A DNA stretch of 37,521 bases, taken from the sequence record DRR723986_16079; one strand, given 5' to 3'. Below, piece by piece: positions 1 to 23,162 of the stretch; the first letter of the stretch is position 1, and each line of letters starts with the position of its first letter. A program made the position numbers and the translations under genes. The notes under the pieces were generated by a model, which saw nothing but the letters and a program-made list of their open reading frames with translations, searched no databases and was not told where the DNA came from.

Positions 1-29
1 GGCGCTTAGAATTCTAAGCGCCCTTTTTT
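1..29. terminator. Intrinsic terminator hairpin, probably bidirectional
   Basis: Perfect 22-nt palindrome GGCGCTTAGAATTCTAAGCGCC (1-22) followed by CTTTTTT on the + strand, lying just past the stop of the minus-strand gene at 43. A minus-strand U-tract would fall outside the window. Confidence 0.8.
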
Positions 30-8730: not shown

Positions 8731-8741
8731 CATTTTAGATG

Positions 8742-8816
8742 GGTGGATGATGGGATTCGAACCCACGACCCTTGGTACCACAAACCAATGCTCTAACCAA
8801 CTGAGCTACAACCACC
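8742..8816 (-). tRNA. tRNA-His (GTG)
   Basis: GGTGGTTGTAGCTCAGTTGGTTAGAGCATTGGTTTGTGGTACCAAGGGTCGTGGGTTCGAATCCCATCATCCACC folds as a cloverleaf with anticodon arm TTGGT-TTGTGGT-ACCAA, T-loop GGTTCGAATCC and the G-1:C73 His identity pair. CCA is not fully encoded. Confidence 0.96.
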
Positions 8817-8849
8817 ATACTTTGTACTTTCGCCGGAGTAGGCTCAGTT

Positions 8850-8888
8850 CTGAGCCCTGCCTGCCGGCAGGCAGGTACAACCACCATA
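8850..8888 (-). repeat. Duplicate of the tRNA-His 5' end, interrupted by a palindrome
   Basis: CTGAGC (8850-8855) + TACAACCACCATA (8876-8888) together equal 8801-8819 exactly. Confidence 0.85.
8856..8875. repeat. 20-bp perfect palindrome CCTGCCTGCCGGCAGGCAGG (REP-like element)
   Basis: Perfect, very GC-rich palindrome in an AT-rich context. From recall, it is a dispersed repeat in Bacteroidota genomes (translates as 'CLPAGR'). Confidence 0.85.
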
Positions 8889-8919
8889 AAAAATGCGCCT
8901 CACGTTCAAGACGCGGGCG

Positions 8920-8927
8920 CAAATATA
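8920..8927 (-). promoter_or_regulatory. -7 promoter box for tRNA-His
   Basis: TATATTTG is a perfect TAnnTTTG match, followed by a GC-rich tract as in stable-RNA promoters. Confidence 0.7.
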
Positions 8928-8953
8928 AAAGATTTTTTCTGAACAAAAACTAT

Positions 8954-11900
8954 CTATCGTTTAGATTTTTTAAAACTTATTTTTCCAAATAATTTTTCTA
9001 AACCATCCAATAACTTTTTCAAGGCGTCAAAATACAGGGTTATGATGAGGATTATACTCATTAACCATATAACAGCAATGTTCGCCCAATAAGTTGGAAC
9101 ATAAATCCCTAGCATTTGAATTTTCTTTCTAGGCGCATAAAAATGTGCATTCCAGAAGTTCTTATCATATGGGTCAAGATAAATTGGATCTGATTTTTGA
9201 ACTAGGTATCCGTTAGCCTCAATCAATTTAGTTAAATCAGTTTTATTTGTTGTAAATTGCTCTAAGGCTTCATTTGTTGTATTATCAACTAGCTCTAGAT
9301 ATTTCTCCTTACCGTATTTTTCAATGATTTCAGAATTTTTAGAATCAATTCGTCTTCTATTGGTGTCTACAATTGATTTGTAGTGCGTTTTAAGTATTGT
9401 GAAATACGTTTTTGCATTGTTGTAAGTCTGATCAGTGTACGCTTCAGGAGTTAGTGTTGCAACACAGTTTTCACATTTTAAGTTTTGAATGAATTGTTCT
9501 TCGCGTTCAATCTCATTTCTCAAAACAGTTAATGCTAATTCAGATTCAGTTTTCTTTTCAGGGTTATCTAAGTTCGTTTTAACATAATCCAATTTGGCAT
9601 TCAACTCTTGCAACCAATAATCTTTTTTCCAAGTCGCAAAACTCTTATTCTTCTCATATTCAAAGTAGATGGCACTGTATTCGTTGCCCTGGAATTGTTC
9701 AACAGCTAAGGCTTCATAGGCCCATCTAGATGCCATGACATTTCCAATTAGCGGCACGGCGCTTTCGTCACCAAACAAAGGATTCAGTTTGTCAAACTTT
9801 ACGATTACACCACTAAATAAAAGCTGTGGAATAATCAAAATCGGGATCAAAATGTATATTACTTTAACTGAATTAAAGCTGGCCGAAATGTTCAATCCAA
9901 GTAAATTAGCGAAGCATGATAGCGAGAACAGTATAATCCAATATTGCCACCACATCCCTTGAATCTCTAAAATCCAGTTTCCAATTACGACAAAAAACAG
10001 CATTTGAACAGCCGATATAATGAACATAATAGAAATCTTAGAAACCAGATAGGAGCCCTTGCTCAAATTCAAAAATGATTCTCTTTTTAATATTTTCTGA
10101 TCCTTAATAATTTCTTCGGCTGCTACCGTTAAACCAATAAACAAGGCTACAATTACTGAAATAAATAAGAATTGAGGAATGTTTTGATTTGACTTGAAAG
10201 TATATTCAGCACCTTCACCTAAATTGTAAAACTTCACAAAGAATGCCAAGATAAAGGCTAGAGCAGGAGCCTCTAATAAGTTGATCATCATGTATTGTCT
10301 GTTCGTTAATTTAGACAATACATCTCTCACGAAATACACTTTTAGTTGCTTGAAGAATCCAGGCTTTTTAAAGGTGCTTTCAGGAATTTCGTGCGCATCT
10401 TCAATCTCACTAGGTTTCGGCTCAAGATTTTCTAAATAGCTTTCATTCCATTCTTTAGGACTGATTTTTCTATGTTGTGTTTGATTACCGTATTCATCAA
10501 CGACCTTTGATTCAATGATGTTGAATATCTGCTCAGGGTTTACGTTACCACAAGTTGGACATTCACTTTCATCACTTTTAGCATGATTAATGCATTCTTT
10601 GAAATACATTACACCATCAACAGGATTACCGTTGTAAATAGGGAATCCACCAACATCCAATATTAATAGTTTATCAAACATCTTGAAGATGTCCGAAGAT
10701 GGTTGGTGAATAACCACAAATATCAATTTACCCTTTAAAGCTAATTCCTTTAAAAGGTCCATAATGTTTTCTGAATCTCTTGAAGATAAACCTGAGGTAG
10801 GCTCATCAACAAATAAAACAGATGGTTCTCTAATTAACTCGAGCGCAATATTCAAACGCTTTCTCTGACCACCTGAGATCGTTTTCTCTAGTGGAGATCC
10901 AACTTTTAAGTCTTTAGTCTCATATAAACCTAAAGAAGTTAGAGTCTTCAATACACGTTTAGCAATGAGCTTGTCATCCATCCCGCCAAAACATAGTTTG
11001 GCATTGTAGAATAGATTTTGAAATACTGTAAGCTCTTCAATTAACAAGTCGTCTTGCGATACATATCCAATAACTCCTTCAATCTGATTTTTGTTATGGT
11101 GGATATCAACATTGTTAATCGTTACCTTACCTTCGGCAGGTGTGTAATTTCCGTTGAGTACATTTAAGAGTGTAGATTTTCCTGCACCCGAACCTCCCAT
11201 GATCCCTAATAGAGAACCAGATTCTTCGGCAAAATTGAAATCGTGTAATCCAATTTTTCCACCTTTAAATTTGTAAACAACGTTCTCGGTTTTAAAGACA
11301 ATTTTCGCCTGAGTTTGATCAGATAAAAATTTTCCGATTATGTCTGAATAATATATCGGTTTAACCTTTGAAGACCTTACTGAACTACCTTGGTTCAATA
11401 TAACGTGTCTTCCTTTTAACAAGGGTTGACCATTTAAGTTGAGTTCCGCATCTCCCAAATATTTGAAGAAGTGGAAGTTTACACTCATTATTTTTAATAC
11501 CCTGATTTGCCCATCTATCCCTTCAGAATAAATGTGCTTAGCTTCTTTGAATGATTCGGTTTCATTCGCCGTAACGTAAAGCATTTCAGGTCTGTCAAGA
11601 ACTTTAGAAATTGGAGATTCAACAAATTCTTTGATTTGATTGTATTCGTCCATTGATACATTAAATGTATCGGCTACTGTTTGTGCGAATTCAAGCTCTT
11701 GTTCGTCTACAACCTCATTTGCATTAATAAATTCAAGGATTCGAACGAGTACAATGATTTTTTGACGTTGAGCCAATTCTTCATTGATTTGAGTACAAAT
11801 TCTTAAAACTTTAACAGAGTGTACAGAAGTTTTCTTTCTTTTTCCGTCTTTCTTTTTGGAGCTCCCTTGAAAGGTTATTAAAAACTCATCAAAGATGGCC

Positions 11901-12064
11901 AAATACTCTTGTACAGCAGCTGAACCTAATTCTTGATTTAAGAAAGATTCAACAATTTTTCGACCCTCACCAGAAGTGACCGGGTTTTGGCTATCAATTT
12001 CTTCATCAACTCTTGCAATAATTGCAAAGAGCTGCATTAAGGCTTTTAATATTCTTTCACTCAT
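8954..12064 (-). CDS. ABCG-like fused ABC transporter (TerB-like N-domain, FHA-like region, NBD, ABC-2 membrane domain)
   Basis: Walker A GGSGAGKST, Q-loop YVSQDD, signature ISGGQ, Walker B LFVDEPTSGL, H-loop IHQP, then multiple TM helices. The N-terminus has a TerB-like pattern (FAIIARVD ... LEFINANEVVDEQELEF). Confidence 0.85.
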   Translation of the reverse strand: MSERILKALMQLFAIIARVDEEIDSQNPVTSGEGRKIVESFLNQELGSAAVQEYLAIFDEFLITFQGSSKKKDGKRKKTSVHSVKVLRICTQINEELAQRQKIIVLVRILEFINANEVVDEQELEFAQTVADTFNVSMDEYNQIKEFVESPISKVLDRPEMLYVTANETESFKEAKHIYSEGIDGQIRVLKIMSVNFHFFKYLGDAELNLNGQPLLKGRHVILNQGSSVRSSKVKPIYYSDIIGKFLSDQTQAKIVFKTENVVYKFKGGKIGLHDFNFAEESGSLLGIMGGSGAGKSTLLNVLNGNYTPAEGKVTINNVDIHHNKNQIEGVIGYVSQDDLLIEELTVFQNLFYNAKLCFGGMDDKLIAKRVLKTLTSLGLYETKDLKVGSPLEKTISGGQRKRLNIALELIREPSVLFVDEPTSGLSSRDSENIMDLLKELALKGKLIFVVIHQPSSDIFKMFDKLLILDVGGFPIYNGNPVDGVMYFKECINHAKSDESECPTCGNVNPEQIFNIIESKVVDEYGNQTQHRKISPKEWNESYLENLEPKPSEIEDAHEIPESTFKKPGFFKQLKVYFVRDVLSKLTNRQYMMINLLEAPALAFILAFFVKFYNLGEGAEYTFKSNQNIPQFLFISVIVALFIGLTVAAEEIIKDQKILKRESFLNLSKGSYLVSKISIMFIISAVQMLFFVVIGNWILEIQGMWWQYWIILFSLSCFANLLGLNISASFNSVKVIYILIPILIIPQLLFSGVIVKFDKLNPLFGDESAVPLIGNVMASRWAYEALAVEQFQGNEYSAIYFEYEKNKSFATWKKDYWLQELNAKLDYVKTNLDNPEKKTESELALTVLRNEIEREEQFIQNLKCENCVATLTPEAYTDQTYNNAKTYFTILKTHYKSIVDTNRRRIDSKNSEIIEKYGKEKYLELVDNTTNEALEQFTTNKTDLTKLIEANGYLVQKSDPIYLDPYDKNFWNAHFYAPRKKIQMLGIYVPTYWANIAVIWLMSIILIITLYFDALKKLLDGLEKLFGKISFKKSKR

Positions 12065-13603: not shown

Positions 13604-14581
13604 ATGCTAAATAGACCCAGACGAAATAGAAAACATCCAGCAATCAGACAAATGATTGAAGAAACGGTACTTAGACCTTCTAATCTAATTTACCCTTTAT
13701 TTGTTACTAATTCTGATGTAGAAAAAGAGGCAATTGATTCATTGCCAGATCTGTATCGTTGGAATTACAATGGTTTGTGCAGAGAAATTGAAGAGTCGAT
13801 TAATTTGGGATTAAGAACATTTGTTCTTTTTCCCGTTATTCCAGATGAATTTAAAGATAAAACCGCCACCTATTCTTATGCTGAATCTAATTTCTATTTA
13901 GATATTATTCATAAGCTTAAAACTGAATTTCCGGGAATTGTTTTGATGAGTGATGTTGCTATGGATCCATACAGTTCAGACGGTCATGATGGTTTTGTCC
14001 AAAACGGGAAAATTTTAAATGACAAAACACTTCCGATTTTAGGGAAAATGGCGGTGGCTCAGGCGCAAGCAGGGATTGACATTATCGGTCCTTCTGATAT
14101 GATGGATGGACGTGTAGCCTTTATTCGTGAACAGTTAGATATAAATGAGATGGATGAAGTTTCTATCATGTCTTATACGGCTAAGTATGCAAGCGCTTAC
14201 TATGGTCCGTTCAGAGATGCTTTAGATTCTGCGCCAAAAGCAGGTGATAAAAAAACGTATCAAATGAATCCTGCCAATAAAAAAGAGGCGCTGCGTGAAG
14301 CTGAATTGGATGAAATGGAAGGAGCCGACTTTTTGATGGTTAAGCCGGCATTATGTTATTTAGATGTAATTCATTCATTAAAAGAGCATTCAAGCTTGCC
14401 AATTGCAGCGTATAACGTAAGTGGTGAGTATGCTATGCTTAAAGCAGCCTGTCAAAATGGGTGGCTTGATTACAATACGGCTATGCCTGAAATGTTATTG
14501 AGCATGCGTAGAGCAGGAGCAGATAGTATTCTTACCTATTTTGCTAAAGATTATGCTCGACTACACAAGGATTTAAAATGA
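13604..14581 (+). CDS. hemB: Porphobilinogen synthase (delta-aminolevulinate dehydratase), Zn-independent type
   Basis: RPRRNR, PSDMMDGRV, AKYASAYYGPFRDA, MVKPA and AYNVSGEYAM motifs. The metal site is Asp-rich (DVAMDPYSSDGHDG) rather than Cys-rich. Confidence 0.97.
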   Translation: MLNRPRRNRKHPAIRQMIEETVLRPSNLIYPLFVTNSDVEKEAIDSLPDLYRWNYNGLCREIEESINLGLRTFVLFPVIPDEFKDKTATYSYAESNFYLDIIHKLKTEFPGIVLMSDVAMDPYSSDGHDGFVQNGKILNDKTLPILGKMAVAQAQAGIDIIGPSDMMDGRVAFIREQLDINEMDEVSIMSYTAKYASAYYGPFRDALDSAPKAGDKKTYQMNPANKKEALREAELDEMEGADFLMVKPALCYLDVIHSLKEHSSLPIAAYNVSGEYAMLKAACQNGWLDYNTAMPEMLLSMRRAGADSILTYFAKDYARLHKDLK

Positions 14582-19951: not shown

Positions 19952-21988
19952 ATGGTGAAAAGACTTATAACGATAGTATTATTAATACTGATGGGTGCCG
20001 GTGTGCACGCCCAATCAGATTCTCTGTTTTTCGTAAAAGTCGAAAAACTACAAGAGCTTTTTGATAAGGCAAACTATAAACCCATTCAATTTGAGGATAC
20101 TTCACTTGAGATTATCTCAACCATTGCATTGATGCAAAGAAGCGGGAATGATGTTACTCGTTCACTTTATCTAGAAAAACAGTTAGAACTCGCAAAGCGC
20201 GATTACGGAATTGGAATCACGGGAGGGTATCTTGAAAACTTGAATACCGCCTTTGGAGATGTTGAAGATAATGTCTTTTATGCGCGTAGATTCACTTTGG
20301 GTGCACAATGGGATGTGTTGAAAGGTGGATTTTTTGAAAATAAAGTTCGAGCTAGAATATTAGAAGATCGAATTTTACGTGAGCAAATGAATCAGGATGC
20401 AGCGGCAGAGAGCTACAATTACCTTAAAAGATTTGATCATACAATATATACCTTCAATGTTGTTAAGATTCAATTATTAGAAGCCAGAAAAAAACAATTA
20501 GAAAAGGAATACAGCACAATTAGTGAACTCGTCTATCTTAAAAAGTTAAAGAAAGAAGACCTAATAGGTTTGGATACAAGACTTTCAGAGGTGGAAAGTT
20601 TAATTAAAGTATACCAGAGTTATAACGAATACCTAACGCCAGAGAATGATTCTCTGGAATTTGACATTTATAACCTTCCACTGATTGATCTTGATTATGA
20701 TAAAATTTTTAAATCAATCGGAGCTCAAACGGATAGCTTGCTTTCTACACGTGTTTATGATGATTATTATAGCTGGTATCATCAGATTAATTTGAGAACT
20801 TATGTTCGCTATAACTATTACGACATTATAGATAATAACGACAGGTCTTTTGTGGCTGCCGGATTAAATTTCACGGTACCAATTCCTTTTAATACGAAAC
20901 TTAAAAATCAAGTAGCTCAAGAAAAATATCGATATGATAATTCCAAACTAGTTGAAAAGAGAGTGAATTTAGAAGAAGAGGTATTATCAACAGGATATGA
21001 GTTTAGATATAAATTAAAGCAATTCATCAGTTTTTACCAGAAGCGAAAAATGTTTATGGAGAAATTAAGAGTTGAAAAGGTGAAAATGAGATTACATGAT
21101 AATAATATTGATCCACTTTTAGGCCTTGAGCTTTATGATGACCTCTTACAAATTGATATCGAATTGGTTGATTTACTGCAAAACCTTTATCTAAAAGCAT
21201 TAAAAATCCATTCAAAAATTCCACATTCCAACATTCGTGATATCATAGTACCACAAACAGCTCAGCAGATTAACGAGTATGTGGATAATAAGAAAAGATC
21301 AGTCTATGTATGGACAAAAACATTTGAAGAATATTCAGCAGATTTCTTGGTTGAATACGCTATCTATAATGAGTTTAAGGATATCATAGTGTCAACTTCT
21401 GCTTCGGATACTTCAAGCGAAAAGGTAAAATTCATTGAAATGGCTGGCGCAAATGCTGACGTGCATTACATGCTTGGCGAAAACAGACTGTTTTATGAAG
21501 AAAATATTGAAGGTTATTTGGACGATATTTTAAGTAAATACAAGATTAAACCAGCTGGAATTCATATTGATATTGAACCACATACTTTCGAGAATTGGGC
21601 AACCGAAAAACAAAAATTGACCAGCCAATACCTTGAAATGATGGGAAAAATTAGTACGTACTGTAAAGGTAACGAACTCAAATTGGCAGTTTCTGTTCCT
21701 TTACATTATGGTGCTGAAGTAATAGACAGATTATTAGTTATTTGTGATGAAATATTCTTTATGTGCTACGAAAATGTGAAGGCTTCATACATCCAAAGAA
21801 AGGTTTTACCATATATAGATAACGGTAAAGATCAAATTGTATTAGCGTTTAGAACAGAAGATTTTGCCAACAGAGTTGAAATGGAGGATAAAATAAATGA
21901 GATGCAAAAGCTAACTTCTTTGCGCTCATTCGCGTATCATGACCTACGTAGAATAATTTCCTTTGATAGAAGTAATATAGAAAAGTGA
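19952..21988 (+). CDS. Secreted protein: TolC/OEP-like N-terminal region fused to a glycoside-hydrolase-like TIM-barrel domain
   Basis: Signal peptide AHA/VHA-Q; two repeats of beta-hairpin (LGAQWDVLKGG; AGLNFTVPI) plus long helices; C-terminal domain with SVYVW, GIHIDIEPH, FMCYE and FAYHD. Confidence 0.6.
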   Translation: MVKRLITIVLLILMGAGVHAQSDSLFFVKVEKLQELFDKANYKPIQFEDTSLEIISTIALMQRSGNDVTRSLYLEKQLELAKRDYGIGITGGYLENLNTAFGDVEDNVFYARRFTLGAQWDVLKGGFFENKVRARILEDRILREQMNQDAAAESYNYLKRFDHTIYTFNVVKIQLLEARKKQLEKEYSTISELVYLKKLKKEDLIGLDTRLSEVESLIKVYQSYNEYLTPENDSLEFDIYNLPLIDLDYDKIFKSIGAQTDSLLSTRVYDDYYSWYHQINLRTYVRYNYYDIIDNNDRSFVAAGLNFTVPIPFNTKLKNQVAQEKYRYDNSKLVEKRVNLEEEVLSTGYEFRYKLKQFISFYQKRKMFMEKLRVEKVKMRLHDNNIDPLLGLELYDDLLQIDIELVDLLQNLYLKALKIHSKIPHSNIRDIIVPQTAQQINEYVDNKKRSVYVWTKTFEEYSADFLVEYAIYNEFKDIIVSTSASDTSSEKVKFIEMAGANADVHYMLGENRLFYEENIEGYLDDILSKYKIKPAGIHIDIEPHTFENWATEKQKLTSQYLEMMGKISTYCKGNELKLAVSVPLHYGAEVIDRLLVICDEIFFMCYENVKASYIQRKVLPYIDNGKDQIVLAFRTEDFANRVEMEDKINEMQKLTSLRSFAYHDLRRIISFDRSNIEK

Positions 21989-21998
21989 TAGTGATTAC

Positions 21999-23162
21999 AT
22001 GAAAAGTGTAAACTTTAAAAGAAAAGAAGAGAGTTACCTAAGGTATTTTGAAGAACAAAGTGCCCGTAAAACTAAACGTCCGTTCAATTGGGATCGTTTT
22101 GTTTATTTGGTGCTGCTCGCTATTTTCTTGTTCTTTACGGGGAGATTTATTATTAACTCTTATTTCTACATTGAAGGTAATGGTCAAGTATTATTTGAAA
22201 GTGTTGACATTAGGCATACTGATGATATTCGAATACTTCAATTCAATGTTGAAGAAGGAGATGACGTGAAAATAGGGGATACACTTTTTACCTACTTTTT
22301 AGATGAAGATATGTTTGGTGATGGGCATGGAGGCGGATCTAATTCTGTAAGTATTGCAGGTGGAGGTAAAAAAGATTCTTGGATTGAAAGAGAGTTGTAT
22401 ACTTTACGTAAAAATGTACAGTTAAATGCTGTTAGAATAAATGATGATAAGGAACTATTGGCAATTTATGAGAGTGACCTTGAGCGCGTAAGAAATGAGG
22501 TTATCTTGGATGCAGTATCACACACAAATCTTGAAAATCTAGAATACCAGATTGCTAAATTGAATGCGGATATTAATGTCCTGTCATCTCAAATTGGTAT
22601 TTATAGGAAACAAATAGCCTATTTAGAAGGACTCATTCAAGAGGAAGACGACAGAGTGATTAAAATTGAACAAGAAACCAATGGAGGTGGAGGAGGAGCT
22701 GGCGGCGCAGGCGAAAAATATCCTTCAGCTTTTAAGAAGGATATGCTAATGCTCGCTGGAGTAGAGAATATTGAAGGCTTTAAAATATTCACTTGTCCTA
22801 TTGATGGTAATATAACTCGAATTCACAAGCAGCCTTATGAGGTAGCCTTGAAAACTGAAACCATTTGTTCAATCCATCAGCCAAATGATGTTCACATTAA
22901 AGGATTCTTTAATCAAGAAGATCTAAAACACTTGAACCAGGGTGATTTAGTAAACATTGAATTCCCAGATGGAACAATGTCTAAAGGAATTGTTGATCGT
23001 TTCTATTCTGCTACGTATATCTTACCTGAAGAATTCCAAAAGAAGTTTGAGCCAACTACAAGAACTTTGGCGGCAGATATTTTACCAATAGGAGAGAACG
23101 ACTTAGATATTTGGAGAAAATATTATAAGTTAAGTGTTAAAGTAACTAAACGTACATTCTAG
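21999..23162 (+). CDS. HlyD-like periplasmic adaptor / membrane fusion protein
   Basis: Single N-terminal TM helix; lipoyl half-motifs VEEGDDVKIGDTLF and CPIDGNI flanking a coiled coil; beta-barrel C-terminus. Confidence 0.8.
   Translation: MKSVNFKRKEESYLRYFEEQSARKTKRPFNWDRFVYLVLLAIFLFFTGRFIINSYFYIEGNGQVLFESVDIRHTDDIRILQFNVEEGDDVKIGDTLFTYFLDEDMFGDGHGGGSNSVSIAGGGKKDSWIERELYTLRKNVQLNAVRINDDKELLAIYESDLERVRNEVILDAVSHTNLENLEYQIAKLNADINVLSSQIGIYRKQIAYLEGLIQEEDDRVIKIEQETNGGGGGAGGAGEKYPSAFKKDMLMLAGVENIEGFKIFTCPIDGNITRIHKQPYEVALKTETICSIHQPNDVHIKGFFNQEDLKHLNQGDLVNIEFPDGTMSKGIVDRFYSATYILPEEFQKKFEPTTRTLAADILPIGENDLDIWRKYYKLSVKVTKRTF

What the first reader, a model, noticed from the sequence alone, without database searches (positions are those of the whole stretch)
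8801..8888. tRNA-His 5' end duplicated upstream and split exactly by a 20-bp palindrome
Seen: 8801-8819 (CTGAGCTACAACCACCATA) recurs at 8850-8888 with CCTGCCTGCCGGCAGGCAGG inserted between CTGAGC and TACAAC, with no clear target-site duplication. The intact tRNA therefore preserves the empty site, which is strong evidence that the palindrome is an insertion. A second hairpin GGCTCAG-TT-CTGAGCC (8841-8856) abuts it. All of this lies between the promoter and the tRNA, so it would be in the pre-tRNA leader. Inference: a tiny non-autonomous mobile palindrome (REP/HUH-type insertion, which lacks TSDs) sitting in a remnant att-like or repair duplication. Duplication of the 5' end is unusual because most tRNA-targeting integrases duplicate the 3' part.
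Basis: partly seen in the sequence, partly recalled or inferred. Interest (0 to 1): 0.7.

Follow-up and report, generated by a model that had tools for sequence, protein, structure and literature searches.

The report
Mobile palindrome module lodged in tRNA-His
A 69-base block containing a 20-base palindrome found in many bacterial phyla has been inserted into the start of this marine bacterium's histidine tRNA gene, and a copied gene start keeps the tRNA intact.

Summary
On the tRNA strand the order is promoter box, stub A (TAT, G-1, tRNA nt 1-9), 20-bp palindrome P, tRNA nt 10-15 (B), 30-nt filler S, then A-B again as the intact tRNA-His.

The nearest genome, G001, has the same block. All 8 other tRNA-His loci I inspected have a clean empty site, so the whole 69 nt is the indel.

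P is not local. The exact 20-mer occurs in at least 123 genome stretches labelled as many phyla and in 40 viral-contig stretches. It lies inside tRNA stubs, in a 5S rRNA copy and in frame in genes.

P joined to the hairpin GCTCAG-AA(A)-CTGAGC recurs in 30 of 30 metagenome loci. Each has the layout stub | P | hairpin | filler | intact tRNA (Asn, Trp, His or Met).

At least 8 other P-bearing cassettes carry a 78-95-aa GIY-YIG nuclease ORF just after P, where this locus has only filler.

I read this copy as a nuclease-less member of a tRNA-lodged selfish element. It sits in the pre-tRNA leader, where RNase P (the enzyme that trims tRNA 5' leaders) should remove it. The way it moves is inferred, not shown.

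A REP/RAYT (HUH transposase) reading and an att-scar reading are not supported. This scan had noted the same 20-mer on other DNA. My three paper searches found no description of it.

The parts
8741..8816 (-). Intact tRNA-His(GTG) with encoded G-1 (8816); CCA not fully encoded
   Evidence: ARAGORN 8741-8815; Rfam RF00005 65.8 bits; G-1 read. No second tRNA-His-like match in G001.
8801..8819 (-). Repeat copy 2 inside the working gene: B2 = tRNA nt 10-15 (8801-8806) and A2 = TAT + G-1 + nt 1-9 (8807-8819)
   Evidence: Sequence; architecture script (A=13, B=6, offset 36).
8820..8849 (-). Filler S (30 nt; tRNA sense AACTGAGCCTACTCCGGCGAAAGTACAAAG). Its first 8 nt form the loop and 3' arm of hairpin 2. 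Its last 22 nt are homologous to the filler of another tRNA-His copy (L218).
   Evidence: L218 filler has the same length of 22 nt, 13 of 22 identical, ending AAAGTACAAA.
8841..8856 (-). Hairpin 2: GGCTCAG-AA-CTGAGCC (tRNA sense), directly after the palindrome. Its 5' arm (8850-8855) is B1, the stub's copy of tRNA nt 10-15.
   Evidence: The same hairpin follows P in L040 and in the 30 metagenome loci that were searched for with it. The version without P was found in 0 of 301 genomes of the order.
8856..8875 (.). Palindrome P, CCTGCCTGCCGGCAGGCAGG: 10-bp GC-rich stem, no stop codon in any frame
   Evidence: Exact copies elsewhere.
8876..8888 (-). Stub A1: copy of leader TAT + G-1 + tRNA nt 1-9, joined to the ancestral upstream flank
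   Evidence: sister genomes read ...GGCGC(A)TTTTTT-TATGGTGGTTGTA-GCTCAG.
8820..8888 (-). The 69-nt indel relative to sister genomes. This is one of several equivalent placements, because of the 13-nt repeat.
   Evidence: BLAST hits of G007, G006 and G002 skip query 171-223; aligned flanks.
8919..8926 (-). Putative -7 promoter box TATATTTG of the tRNA-His transcript
   Evidence: Conserved as TA..TTTG upstream of tRNA-His in relatives. The consensus is recalled knowledge. No start site was mapped.
8894..8918 (-). GC hairpin followed by a T-run. Probably the terminator of the upstream ABC-transporter ORF; it overlaps the tRNA promoter region.
   Evidence: Sequence; conserved with changed loop sequence in sisters; ORF 8954-12064(-) = ABC_tran + ABC2_membrane. 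Inference.

Best explanation
The feature is one copy of a small, protein-less selfish DNA module lodged in the 5' end of the tRNA-His gene, which is the only tRNA-His-like match in G001.

What arrived. The module is the 20-bp palindrome P, a second hairpin (GCTCAG-AA-CTGAGC) and a short filler. It sits after tRNA nucleotide 9. It is followed by a fresh copy of the gene's first 13 bases (TAT, G-1, nt 1-9), so a complete tRNA gene is regenerated downstream. The old 5' end is left behind as a dead stub.

Why it is tolerated. The module ends up inside the pre-tRNA leader, is transcribed from the tRNA's own promoter, and should be cut off by RNase P. This step is inferred.

Where it comes from. In other genomes and one viral contig, P sits in the same way inside a tRNA stub with a 78-95-aa GIY-YIG nuclease gene just after it. 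Where the sequence reaches far enough (4 units), the intact tRNA follows that ORF directly. I infer that such a nuclease makes the break in the tRNA gene's D-arm. Repair from a filled copy would then install the module, with the tRNA sequence itself serving as the homology. On this view the window's copy is a non-autonomous or decayed relative that depends on a nuclease encoded elsewhere, or is now immobile.

P itself. P is a widespread 20-bp unit that inserts cleanly, without target duplication, into hairpin-rich DNA, stable-RNA genes and open reading frames.

Shown: the anatomy, the filled and empty alleles, the recurrence, the link to GIY-YIG cassettes, and presence in an RNA library. Inferred: the nuclease's role, the repair route and RNase P removal.
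For: 1. Anatomy: A-P-B-S-A-B.

2. Filled and empty alleles. G001 has the identical block. The 8 other tRNA-His loci inspected are empty: 4 of the same genus (G002, G005, G006, G007) and 4 of other genera.

3. Recurrence. A metagenome scan for the right half of P plus hairpin 2 gave 30 loci. In all 30 the left flank is a tRNA 5' stub ending in TA. An intact tRNA with the same 5' end follows 15-76 nt after the hairpin in 27; the other 3 run into a contig end. By tRNA: Asn 21, Trp 5, His 3, Met 1. These totals include one such cut locus each for Asn, Trp and His, assigned from its stub or partial tRNA. L040 (tRNA-Trp, another family of the order) has the same layout.

4. Common descent of the His copies: the window's filler and L218's have the same length and 13 of 22 identical bases.

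5. ORF-bearing cassettes with the layout stub | P | B | GIY-YIG ORF: G026:C85 (tRNA-Arg, two tandem 295-bp units), L089 (Lys), L208 (Met), L173 and viral contig L268 were called by script. L046 and L160 were read by eye from the printed flanks. The intact tRNA starts within -22 to +1 nt of the ORF's end in L089, L208 and the tRNA-proximal G026 unit. The distal G026 unit is followed instead by the next stub-P unit.

6. The ORFs match Pfam GIY-YIG at E 7e-18 to 1.5e-14. The nearest solved chains are UPF0213 proteins and SLX1.

7. G001 itself has a 78-aa GIY-YIG gene between tRNA-Leu and a 3' pseudo-copy split by a P variant.

8. A GIY-YIG-like ORF lies within 700 nt in 5 of the 30 hairpin-2 loci.

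9. P alone:
- Exact copies in 14 of 301 genomes of the order (21 sites; reversed control 0).
- At least 123 genome stretches from many labelled phyla and 40 viral-contig stretches.
- An intact tRNA within 150 nt in 14 of 142 instances.
- The A-P-B-S-A-B signature in 18 of 142 instances against 20 of 906 control sites.
- Insertion points straddled by stems of 6 bp or more in 19 of 137 against 32 of 847 controls.

10. Transcription. A metatranscriptome contig of 118 nt, with 0 differences, covers 8766-8883. That is the tRNA 5' half, filler, hairpin 2, P and 8 nt of the stub. The tool's caveat applies: an RNA library can contain DNA.
Against: - No nuclease gene lies in the window (tblastn best E 0.32), and the window's own genome is not held. 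A trans-acting partner is therefore unproven here.
- Only 5 of 123 genome-scan P loci have a GIY-YIG-like ORF within about 400 nt, so most P copies are solitary.
- The 30-locus result is partly built in, because the search pattern required hairpin 2.
- I found no sign that the filler is a decayed nuclease ORF.
- Repair from a filled copy explains spread between orthologous tRNA genes. It does not explain how the module changed tRNA species while copying the new gene's own 5' end.
- The duplicated stub varies from 9 to 33 nt, or about 45 nt with mismatches. That does not fit a fixed staggered cut.
- The 19-bp direct repeat could delete the block precisely, so empty sites in relatives could in principle be losses.
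- The regenerated A|B junction should still be a target for a nuclease that recognises it, which the model does not explain.
- No cleavage, transposition or RNase P processing was observed.
Confidence: 0.6

Rival explanations
1. Two independent local events. A short repair or slippage duplication of the tRNA 5' end arose first. A free 20-bp mobile palindrome later jumped into the spare copy.
For: P does move as a bare 20-bp unit elsewhere: in frame in genes, nested inside P, and in a 5S copy. In this locus P interrupts an otherwise contiguous A-B stub.
Against: Sister genomes lack the duplication as well as P. P plus hairpin 2 recurs as one unit at four tRNA species. The hairpin without P was found in 0 of 301 genomes of the order. 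The filler is new sequence that a simple duplication cannot supply, and it is homologous to the filler of another filled tRNA-His locus.
Confidence: 0.15
2. The leader insert is, or has become, a functional RNA part of the pre-tRNA. It could be a processing or stability signal, or the source of a leader-derived small RNA, kept by selection rather than by mobility.
For: It is present in an RNA-library contig. P, hairpin 2 and a CCGG motif 3-11 nt after it (8 or 10-11 nt in most loci) stay conserved while the rest of the filler diverges. The left half of P, which the search pattern did not constrain, is perfect in 26 of 30 loci.
Against: The same 20-mer sits in coding genes, in 5S and in unrelated intergenic DNA of many phyla. 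Most tRNA-His genes of relatives do without it. The predicted fold of the pre-tRNA is not better than shuffles (z = -1.03). Stubs decay: 8 of 29 differ from the working gene.
Confidence: 0.15
3. A REP/REPIN-type hairpin moved by a RAYT or IS200-like HUH tyrosine transposase.
For: It is a short perfect palindrome inserted without target duplication. Weak to good Y1_Tnp matches exist in 3 of 5 P-bearing genomes tested.
Against: There are only 1-3 exact copies per genome. There is no Y1_Tnp in G046 (24 P-like sites, 99% complete) or G048 (16 sites). None of 6 Y1_Tnp loci has a P-like sequence (5 or fewer mismatches) in the stretch fetched around it, up to about 1 kb on each side. P starts CCTG, not GTAG or CGTC (tags as in the abstract of PMC3733652, listing). 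29 of 142 copies lie in long open frames.
Confidence: 0.06
4. A scar (att remnant) of a tRNA-targeting integrase element that later excised.
For: tRNA genes are classic integration sites, and partial tRNA duplications mark them (textbook knowledge).
Against: The 5' end is duplicated, not the 3' end. The repeats are only 30-50 nt apart. No integrase lies nearby (neighbours). The same tiny layout recurs in 30 loci without cargo.
Confidence: 0.03

Closest known systems
Ssn nucleases with NTS/SRM hairpin repeats (Chenal et al. 2025, PMC11893778; abstract and sections 6, 7 and 10 read)
   Same: A small single-domain GIY-YIG nuclease gene sits next to copies of a specific hairpin repeat. The paper shows that these enzymes cut single-stranded DNA near their hairpin and that the family is widespread.
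   Different: NTS/SRM repeats are about 30 bp with oriented, non-palindromic flanks and occur in hundreds of copies per genome. P is a bare 20-bp perfect palindrome with 1-3 exact copies per genome. The paper sections I read do not describe tRNA-lodged cassettes or regenerating duplications. Whether the ORFs here belong to cd10448 could not be tested. Their nearest solved chains are UPF0213 proteins.
Free-standing and intron-borne GIY-YIG homing endonuclease genes (I-TevI type; recalled knowledge)
   Same: A selfish nuclease gene sits in a conserved gene. Filled and empty alleles exist among relatives. Spread is presumed to occur by break repair using the conserved gene as homology.
   Different: There is no intron or intein. 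Harmlessness would come from regenerating the tRNA 5' end and from RNase P trimming. The ORFs have about 80 aa and no separate DNA-binding domain. The window's copy has no ORF at all.
REP / REPIN elements with RAYT transposases (Bertels and Rainey 2011, PMC3116915; passages read)
   Same: Tiny non-autonomous palindromic DNA that inserts without an obvious target duplication, sometimes into other copies of itself.
   Different: REPINs are abundant within a genome, mostly extragenic, specific to a species or genus, and cluster beside their RAYT. P is low-copy, found across phyla, often inside genes, and not found beside Y1_Tnp genes.
Rickettsia palindromic elements, cyanobacterial small dispersed repeats (SDR) and mitochondrial GC clusters / double-hairpin elements. 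RPE and SDR are recalled. For the GC clusters I saw only the listing of PMC4478555.
   Same: Very short GC-rich hairpin units in AT-rich genomes that land inside genes, including RNA genes and in frame in proteins, with no known enzyme of their own.
   Different: Those families are confined to one lineage or organelle. P is identical across labelled phyla and viral contigs. It is tied to a tRNA-stub architecture and to GIY-YIG cassettes.

Membership tests
REP/REPIN-RAYT | Many copies (tens to hundreds) of the hairpin within one genome | tested here: not met
   G001: 1 exact site and 5 sites with 3 or fewer mismatches. Exact copies number 1-3 per genome in the 14 of 301 genomes that have any.
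REP/REPIN-RAYT | Copies of the repeat flank the cognate Y1 (RAYT) transposase gene | tested here: not met
   None of 6 Y1_Tnp loci in G001, G026 and G180 has a P-like sequence (5 or fewer mismatches) in the stretch fetched around it, up to about 1 kb on each side. G046 and G048 have no Y1_Tnp match.
REP/REPIN-RAYT | GTAG or CGTC tag at one end of the palindrome (abstract of PMC3733652) | tested here: not met
   P begins CCTG and ends CAGG. The flanks show no conserved tag: the base next to P is A in 40% of cases, and 91 of 142 flanks do not extend the palindrome.
Ssn / SRM system (Chenal 2025) | Hairpin repeat lies next to a small single-domain GIY-YIG gene | tested here: met
   Met for the family of P copies: at least 8 cassettes with P 6-45 nt upstream of a 78-95-aa GIY-YIG ORF. 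Not met in the window itself, which has no such ORF.
Ssn / SRM system (Chenal 2025) | Nuclease belongs to CDD family cd10448 | not testable with these tools
   No CDD library is available. Pfam gives only PF01541. NCBIfam gives no hit. The nearest solved chains are UPF0213 and SLX1.
Ssn / SRM system (Chenal 2025) | Site-specific cleavage of single-stranded DNA near the hairpin | not testable with these tools
   Needs an enzyme assay.
Homing endonuclease cassette | Filled and empty alleles of a conserved host gene among relatives | tested here: met
   Window and G001 are filled. The 8 other tRNA-His loci inspected are empty.
Homing endonuclease cassette | Element encodes its own endonuclease | tested here: not met
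   The 69-nt block has no room for an ORF. The only ORF called across it is a 50-aa frame that runs on through the tRNA.
Integrase att duplication at a tRNA gene | Integrase gene and cargo between a full tRNA and a partial 3' repeat | tested here: not met
   The repeat is of the 5' end. Only 56 nt lie between the copies of A. The neighbours are an ABC transporter, a DUF1569 protein and an AraC-type regulator.
MITE | Terminal inverted repeats plus a fixed-length target-site duplication | tested here: not met
   The immediate direct repeat is 0-1 nt in 127 of 142 copies. There are four 7-nt cases; I took at least some of them to lie in heptamer-repeat DNA, from a reading of the printed flanks.

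The most novel reading that the evidence does not exclude
P and its carriers form an undescribed class of selfish DNA. An approximately 80-aa, probably structure-specific GIY-YIG nuclease rides inside pre-tRNA leaders. It borrows the tRNA promoter for expression and RNase P for harmless removal. It homes between orthologous tRNA genes across phyla, with phages as vehicles. In trans it scatters a bare 20-bp hairpin into hairpin loops, stable-RNA genes and reading frames. That hairpin would be among the smallest mobile DNA units known. The window's copy would be a nuclease-less passenger of this system in a marine Bacteroidota genome.
Probability: 0.35. Interest if true: 0.9.

Novelty: new variant of a known kind. 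Interest (0 to 1): 0.72.

Why it matters
If the reading holds, tRNA genes host a compact parasite with its own way of being harmless. It rebuilds the gene's 5' end and relies on RNase P, where introns rely on splicing.

It would give a candidate enzyme partner to ultra-short palindromic insertions, whose mobility has long lacked one.

It would also explain odd partial tRNA copies, and some assembly breaks at tRNA loci, in metagenome genomes. An identical 20-mer across phyla and viral contigs is also a useful marker of recent horizontal DNA traffic.

A small nuclease that recognises a defined hairpin or tRNA-gene structure could be useful as a tool. Ssn enzymes are already proposed for that purpose (PMC11893778 abstract).

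Tried and rejected
- Own genome: not held, so the genome-wide count was done in G001 and in samples of relatives.
- The search of earlier findings by sequence found nothing.
- Literature: the 20-mer and two substrings as text gave only unrelated zebrafish papers. Two keyword searches gave no description of this element.
- Is the filler a decayed nuclease ORF? I saw only a vague resemblance of TCCGGCGAA...GTACAAAG to the 3' end of the G026 ORF. I rejected it as unsupported.
- Is the filler an inverted copy of the stub? Local alignment beat shuffles in only 3 of 30 loci, though L230 has a perfect 10-nt match. A P-like start of the filler was significant in 11 of 30. This is left unexplained.
- A fixed target-site duplication is rejected.
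- The hairpin-2 version without P: 0 of 301 genomes.
- My first regex screen for GIY-YIG near P found 1 of 142. tblastn then found more. One of my three tblastn queries was out of frame by my own error and contributed nothing.
- Pre-tRNA fold: the minimum-energy structure pairs the stub with the tRNA 3' acceptor strand, but z = -1.03, so I draw no conclusion.
- RNA 5' end: the metatranscriptome run has no contig over 8888-9050 or below 8702. This is not usable as evidence for a start site.
- Complex prediction, structure prediction and the protein databases were not used, because no claim here needs them.

Full report
**What is there**

The window is 35% GC. tRNA-His(GTG) lies on the minus strand at 8741-8815 (ARAGORN; Rfam 65.8 bits). 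G-1 is encoded at 8816 by my reading.

In tRNA sense the region reads as follows.
- A TATATTTG box at 8926-8919.
- A GC hairpin with a T-run at 8918-8889.
- Stub A1, TATGGTGGTTGTA, at 8888-8876. It holds three leader bases, G-1 and tRNA nt 1-9.
- The perfect palindrome P, CCTGCCTGCCGGCAGGCAGG, at 8875-8856.
- B1, GCTCAG, at 8855-8850. This is tRNA nt 10-15.
- A 30-nt filler S at 8849-8820. Its first bases, AA-CTGAGC, close a second hairpin with B1.
- A2 and B2, which form the start of the intact tRNA.

P has no match in 100 shuffles of the window, and no bases are duplicated at its edges.

**It is a real insertion or deletion difference**

The window's own genome is not held. The nearest genome, G001, is 97% identical over 701 nt and carries the identical block.

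In three other species of the genus (G007, G006, G002) BLAST skips query positions 171-223. The aligned sequences read ...TATATTTGCGCCCGC...GGCGC-T-run-TATGGTGGTTGTA-GCTCAGTTGG. A fourth genome of the genus (G005) and four genomes of other genera are also empty. That makes 8 of 8 loci inspected besides G001. The whole 69 nt, not just P, is therefore the difference.

DNA contigs of other public runs cover the filled form:
- X1: 492 nt over 8789-9050 with 9 differences, so a different strain.
- X2 and X3: 8789-8877 and 8848-9050. These two runs may be one data set filed twice.

This rules out misassembly.

One caveat on direction. The 19-bp direct repeat could delete the block precisely, so gain versus loss rests on parsimony.

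**P is found across many phyla**

- The exact 20-mer occurs in 14 of 301 sampled genomes of the order, at 21 sites. The reversed-sequence control gave 0.
The record titles include Patescibacteria groups, Omnitrophota, Bacteroidota, Planctomycetota, Gamma- and Deltaproteobacteria, Bdellovibrionales, Thermodesulfovibrio and Chloroflexi. They also include isolates of Winogradskyella, Flagellimonas, Flavivirga and Longitalea.
- Forty viral-contig stretches hold it.

Across 142 distinct instances:
- The flanks do not extend the palindrome in 91 of 142.
- The adjacent base is A in 40%.
- An immediate direct repeat is 0-1 nt in 127 of 142.

Wherever an intact reference copy lies in cis, P splits contiguous sequence cleanly. 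Examples are the window, L040, L056, L136, the 5S rRNA copy L146, G026:C85 and, with a P variant, G001:C401.

Further properties of P:
- P lies inside P in L070 and L094.
- A long open frame runs through P in 29 of 142 instances, most often reading LPAGRQ. One example is an FtsK gene.
- Insertion points are straddled by stems of 6 bp or more in 19 of 137, against 32 of 847 control sites.
- An intact tRNA lies within 150 nt in 14 of 142.

**The window's layout is a recurrent module**

The signature A-P-B-S-A-B (a flank of 8 nt or more repeated within 160 nt) occurs in 18 of 142 instances, against 20 of 906 control sites.

L040, from another family of the order, shows ACGGGTGTA | P | GCTCAG-AAA-CTGAGC | 62-nt filler | ACGGGTGTA-GCTCAG at tRNA-Trp.

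A metagenome scan for the right half of P plus the second hairpin gave 30 loci. In all 30 the left flank is a tRNA 5' stub ending in TA. In 27 an intact tRNA with the same 5' end follows; the other 3 reach a contig end. The tRNAs are Asn 21, Trp 5, His 3 and Met 1. These totals include one contig-end locus each for Asn, Trp and His, assigned from its stub or partial tRNA. The hairpin was required by the pattern. The stub, the tRNA and the duplication were not.

Other features of these loci:
- The duplicated stub is 9-33 nt long, or about 45 nt with mismatches in L205.
- In 8 of 29 loci the stub has diverged from the working gene, as expected of a dead copy.
- The left half of P, which the pattern did not constrain, is perfect in 26 of 30.
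- The tRNA-His copy L218 has a filler of the same length as the window's, with 13 of 22 bases identical.
- L225 and L211 carry tandem 72-nt units.
- The hairpin without P (TA-GCTCAG-AA(N)-CTGAGC) was found in 0 of 301 genomes of the order.

**Link to a nuclease**

The lead came from earlier notes of this scan. I tested it here.

G026:C85 reads [tRNA-Arg nt 1-22] | P | GAGCACC | an 84-95-aa frame (about 80 aa of nuclease proper), twice in tandem with a 295-bp period. The intact tRNA-Arg then follows, and its start provides the ORF's stop codon. The tRNA-type TA..TTTG box lies upstream of the first stub.

A stub split by P with a GIY-YIG ORF just downstream is also seen in L089 (Lys), L208 (Met), L173 and viral contig L268 (called by script), and in L046 and L160 (read by eye). 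P lies 6-45 nt before the start codon. In L089, L208 and the tRNA-proximal G026 unit the tRNA starts within -22 to +1 nt of the ORF's end.

The ORFs match Pfam GIY-YIG (E 7e-18 to 1.5e-14) and no NCBIfam model. Their nearest solved chains are UPF0213 proteins and SLX1.

G001 has a 78-aa GIY-YIG gene between tRNA-Leu(CAA) and a 3' pseudo-copy of that tRNA, which is split by the variant CCTGTCTGCCGACAGGCAGG.

A GIY-YIG-like ORF lies within the held flanks in:
- 5 of 30 hairpin-2 loci,
- 5 of 123 genome-scan loci,
- 1 of 15 order loci,
- 1 of 40 viral loci.

The window has none. Most P copies are therefore solitary, but the cassette architecture with the ORF matches the window's architecture without it.

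**How it most likely works**

Shown: the module sits after tRNA nt 9, and a full tRNA is regenerated downstream.

Supported: the old promoter box stays upstream of the stub, here and in many of the 30 loci. An RNA-library contig covers 8766-8883 without a difference (with the tool's caveat that DNA can be present in such libraries).

Inferred:
- The precursor carries the module in its leader, and RNase P removes it.
- In ORF-bearing relatives the tRNA promoter expresses the nuclease.
- The nuclease breaks the D-arm region of an empty tRNA gene.
- Synthesis-dependent repair from a filled copy uses the tRNA body as right homology and the stub as left homology. This would reproduce A-P-B-S-A-B and, on repetition, tandem units.

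Not explained:
- How the module changed tRNA species.
- Why the regenerated site is not cut again.
- How bare P spreads.

**Rivals**

- REP/RAYT. Copy number is low. G046 and G048 have no Y1_Tnp. None of 6 Y1_Tnp loci has a P-like sequence nearby. There is no GTAG/CGTC tag (REPIN criteria from passages of PMC3116915).
- att scar. The wrong end of the tRNA is duplicated, and there is no integrase or cargo.
- Two-step local origin. This is possible at the birth of the family but unlikely for this locus.
- A functional leader RNA. This cannot be excluded, but the predicted fold is not special.

**Comparison with what is known**

The closest described system is Ssn nucleases with NTS/SRM hairpins (PMC11893778; abstract and sections 6, 7 and 10 read). 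It shares the pairing of a small GIY-YIG nuclease gene with a hairpin repeat. It differs in repeat form, copy number and the tRNA-stub architecture. Membership in cd10448 could not be tested.

By way of working, the module resembles homing endonuclease genes, and P resembles the Rickettsia, cyanobacterial and mitochondrial mini-palindromes (recalled).

Three paper searches found no description of this 20-mer or of the tRNA-stub cassette. Supplements were not examined.

This scan had already noted the same 20-mer on other DNA. One of those notes is marked as having partly failed a later check, and I do not know which part.

**Verdict**

The feature is a nuclease-less member of a recurrent, apparently undescribed tRNA-lodged element that carries a palindrome found across many phyla.

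Noticed in passing
window 1-22: A perfect 22-bp palindrome, GGCGCTTAGAATTCTAAGCGCC, at the very start of the window.
   Followed up: no
window 8894-8926: A GC hairpin with a T-run sits directly downstream of the tRNA -7 box and 3' of the ABC-transporter ORF. The terminator of the upstream gene and the tRNA promoter appear to overlap. The stem is kept and the loop varies in sister genomes.
   Followed up: partly
L146 (genome contigs locus), around 301-320: P splits a 22-nt pseudo-copy of the 3' part of a 5S rRNA gene. The pseudo-copy lies just beyond that gene's terminator. This is the mirror image of the tRNA 5' stubs.
   Followed up: partly
G001:C401:8080-8530 (L186): tRNA-Leu(CAA), terminator, 78-aa GIY-YIG ORF, then a copy of the tRNA 3' end and terminator. 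That copy is split by the variant CCTGTCTGCCGACAGGCAGG, which also recurs in G046 and G048.
   Followed up: partly
L070, L094, L073, L080: P is inserted into another P or a P-like hairpin one base off its centre, giving nested palindromes.
   Followed up: no
L202-L231, filler after hairpin 2: The filler often begins, 8-11 nt after the hairpin, with CCGG(CA), the centre of P. Alignment to P beats shuffles in 11 of 30 loci. This could be a decayed second P.
   Followed up: partly
L260 and L268 (viral contigs): Deleting P from L260 restores a complete tRNA-Met. L268 carries a tRNA stub | P | GIY-YIG ORF cassette. Viral-contig labels may include prophage or misbinned DNA.
   Followed up: partly
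window 14050-14070, 19992-20013, 22686-22715: Three other short GC-rich islands in the AT-rich window. None matches P.
   Followed up: no
window 8741-8908 (-): In the predicted precursor fold the stub pairs with the tRNA's 3' acceptor strand, and the 3' arm of hairpin 2 pairs with the real D-stem. This would be a possible misfolding cost, but z = -1.03.
   Followed up: no
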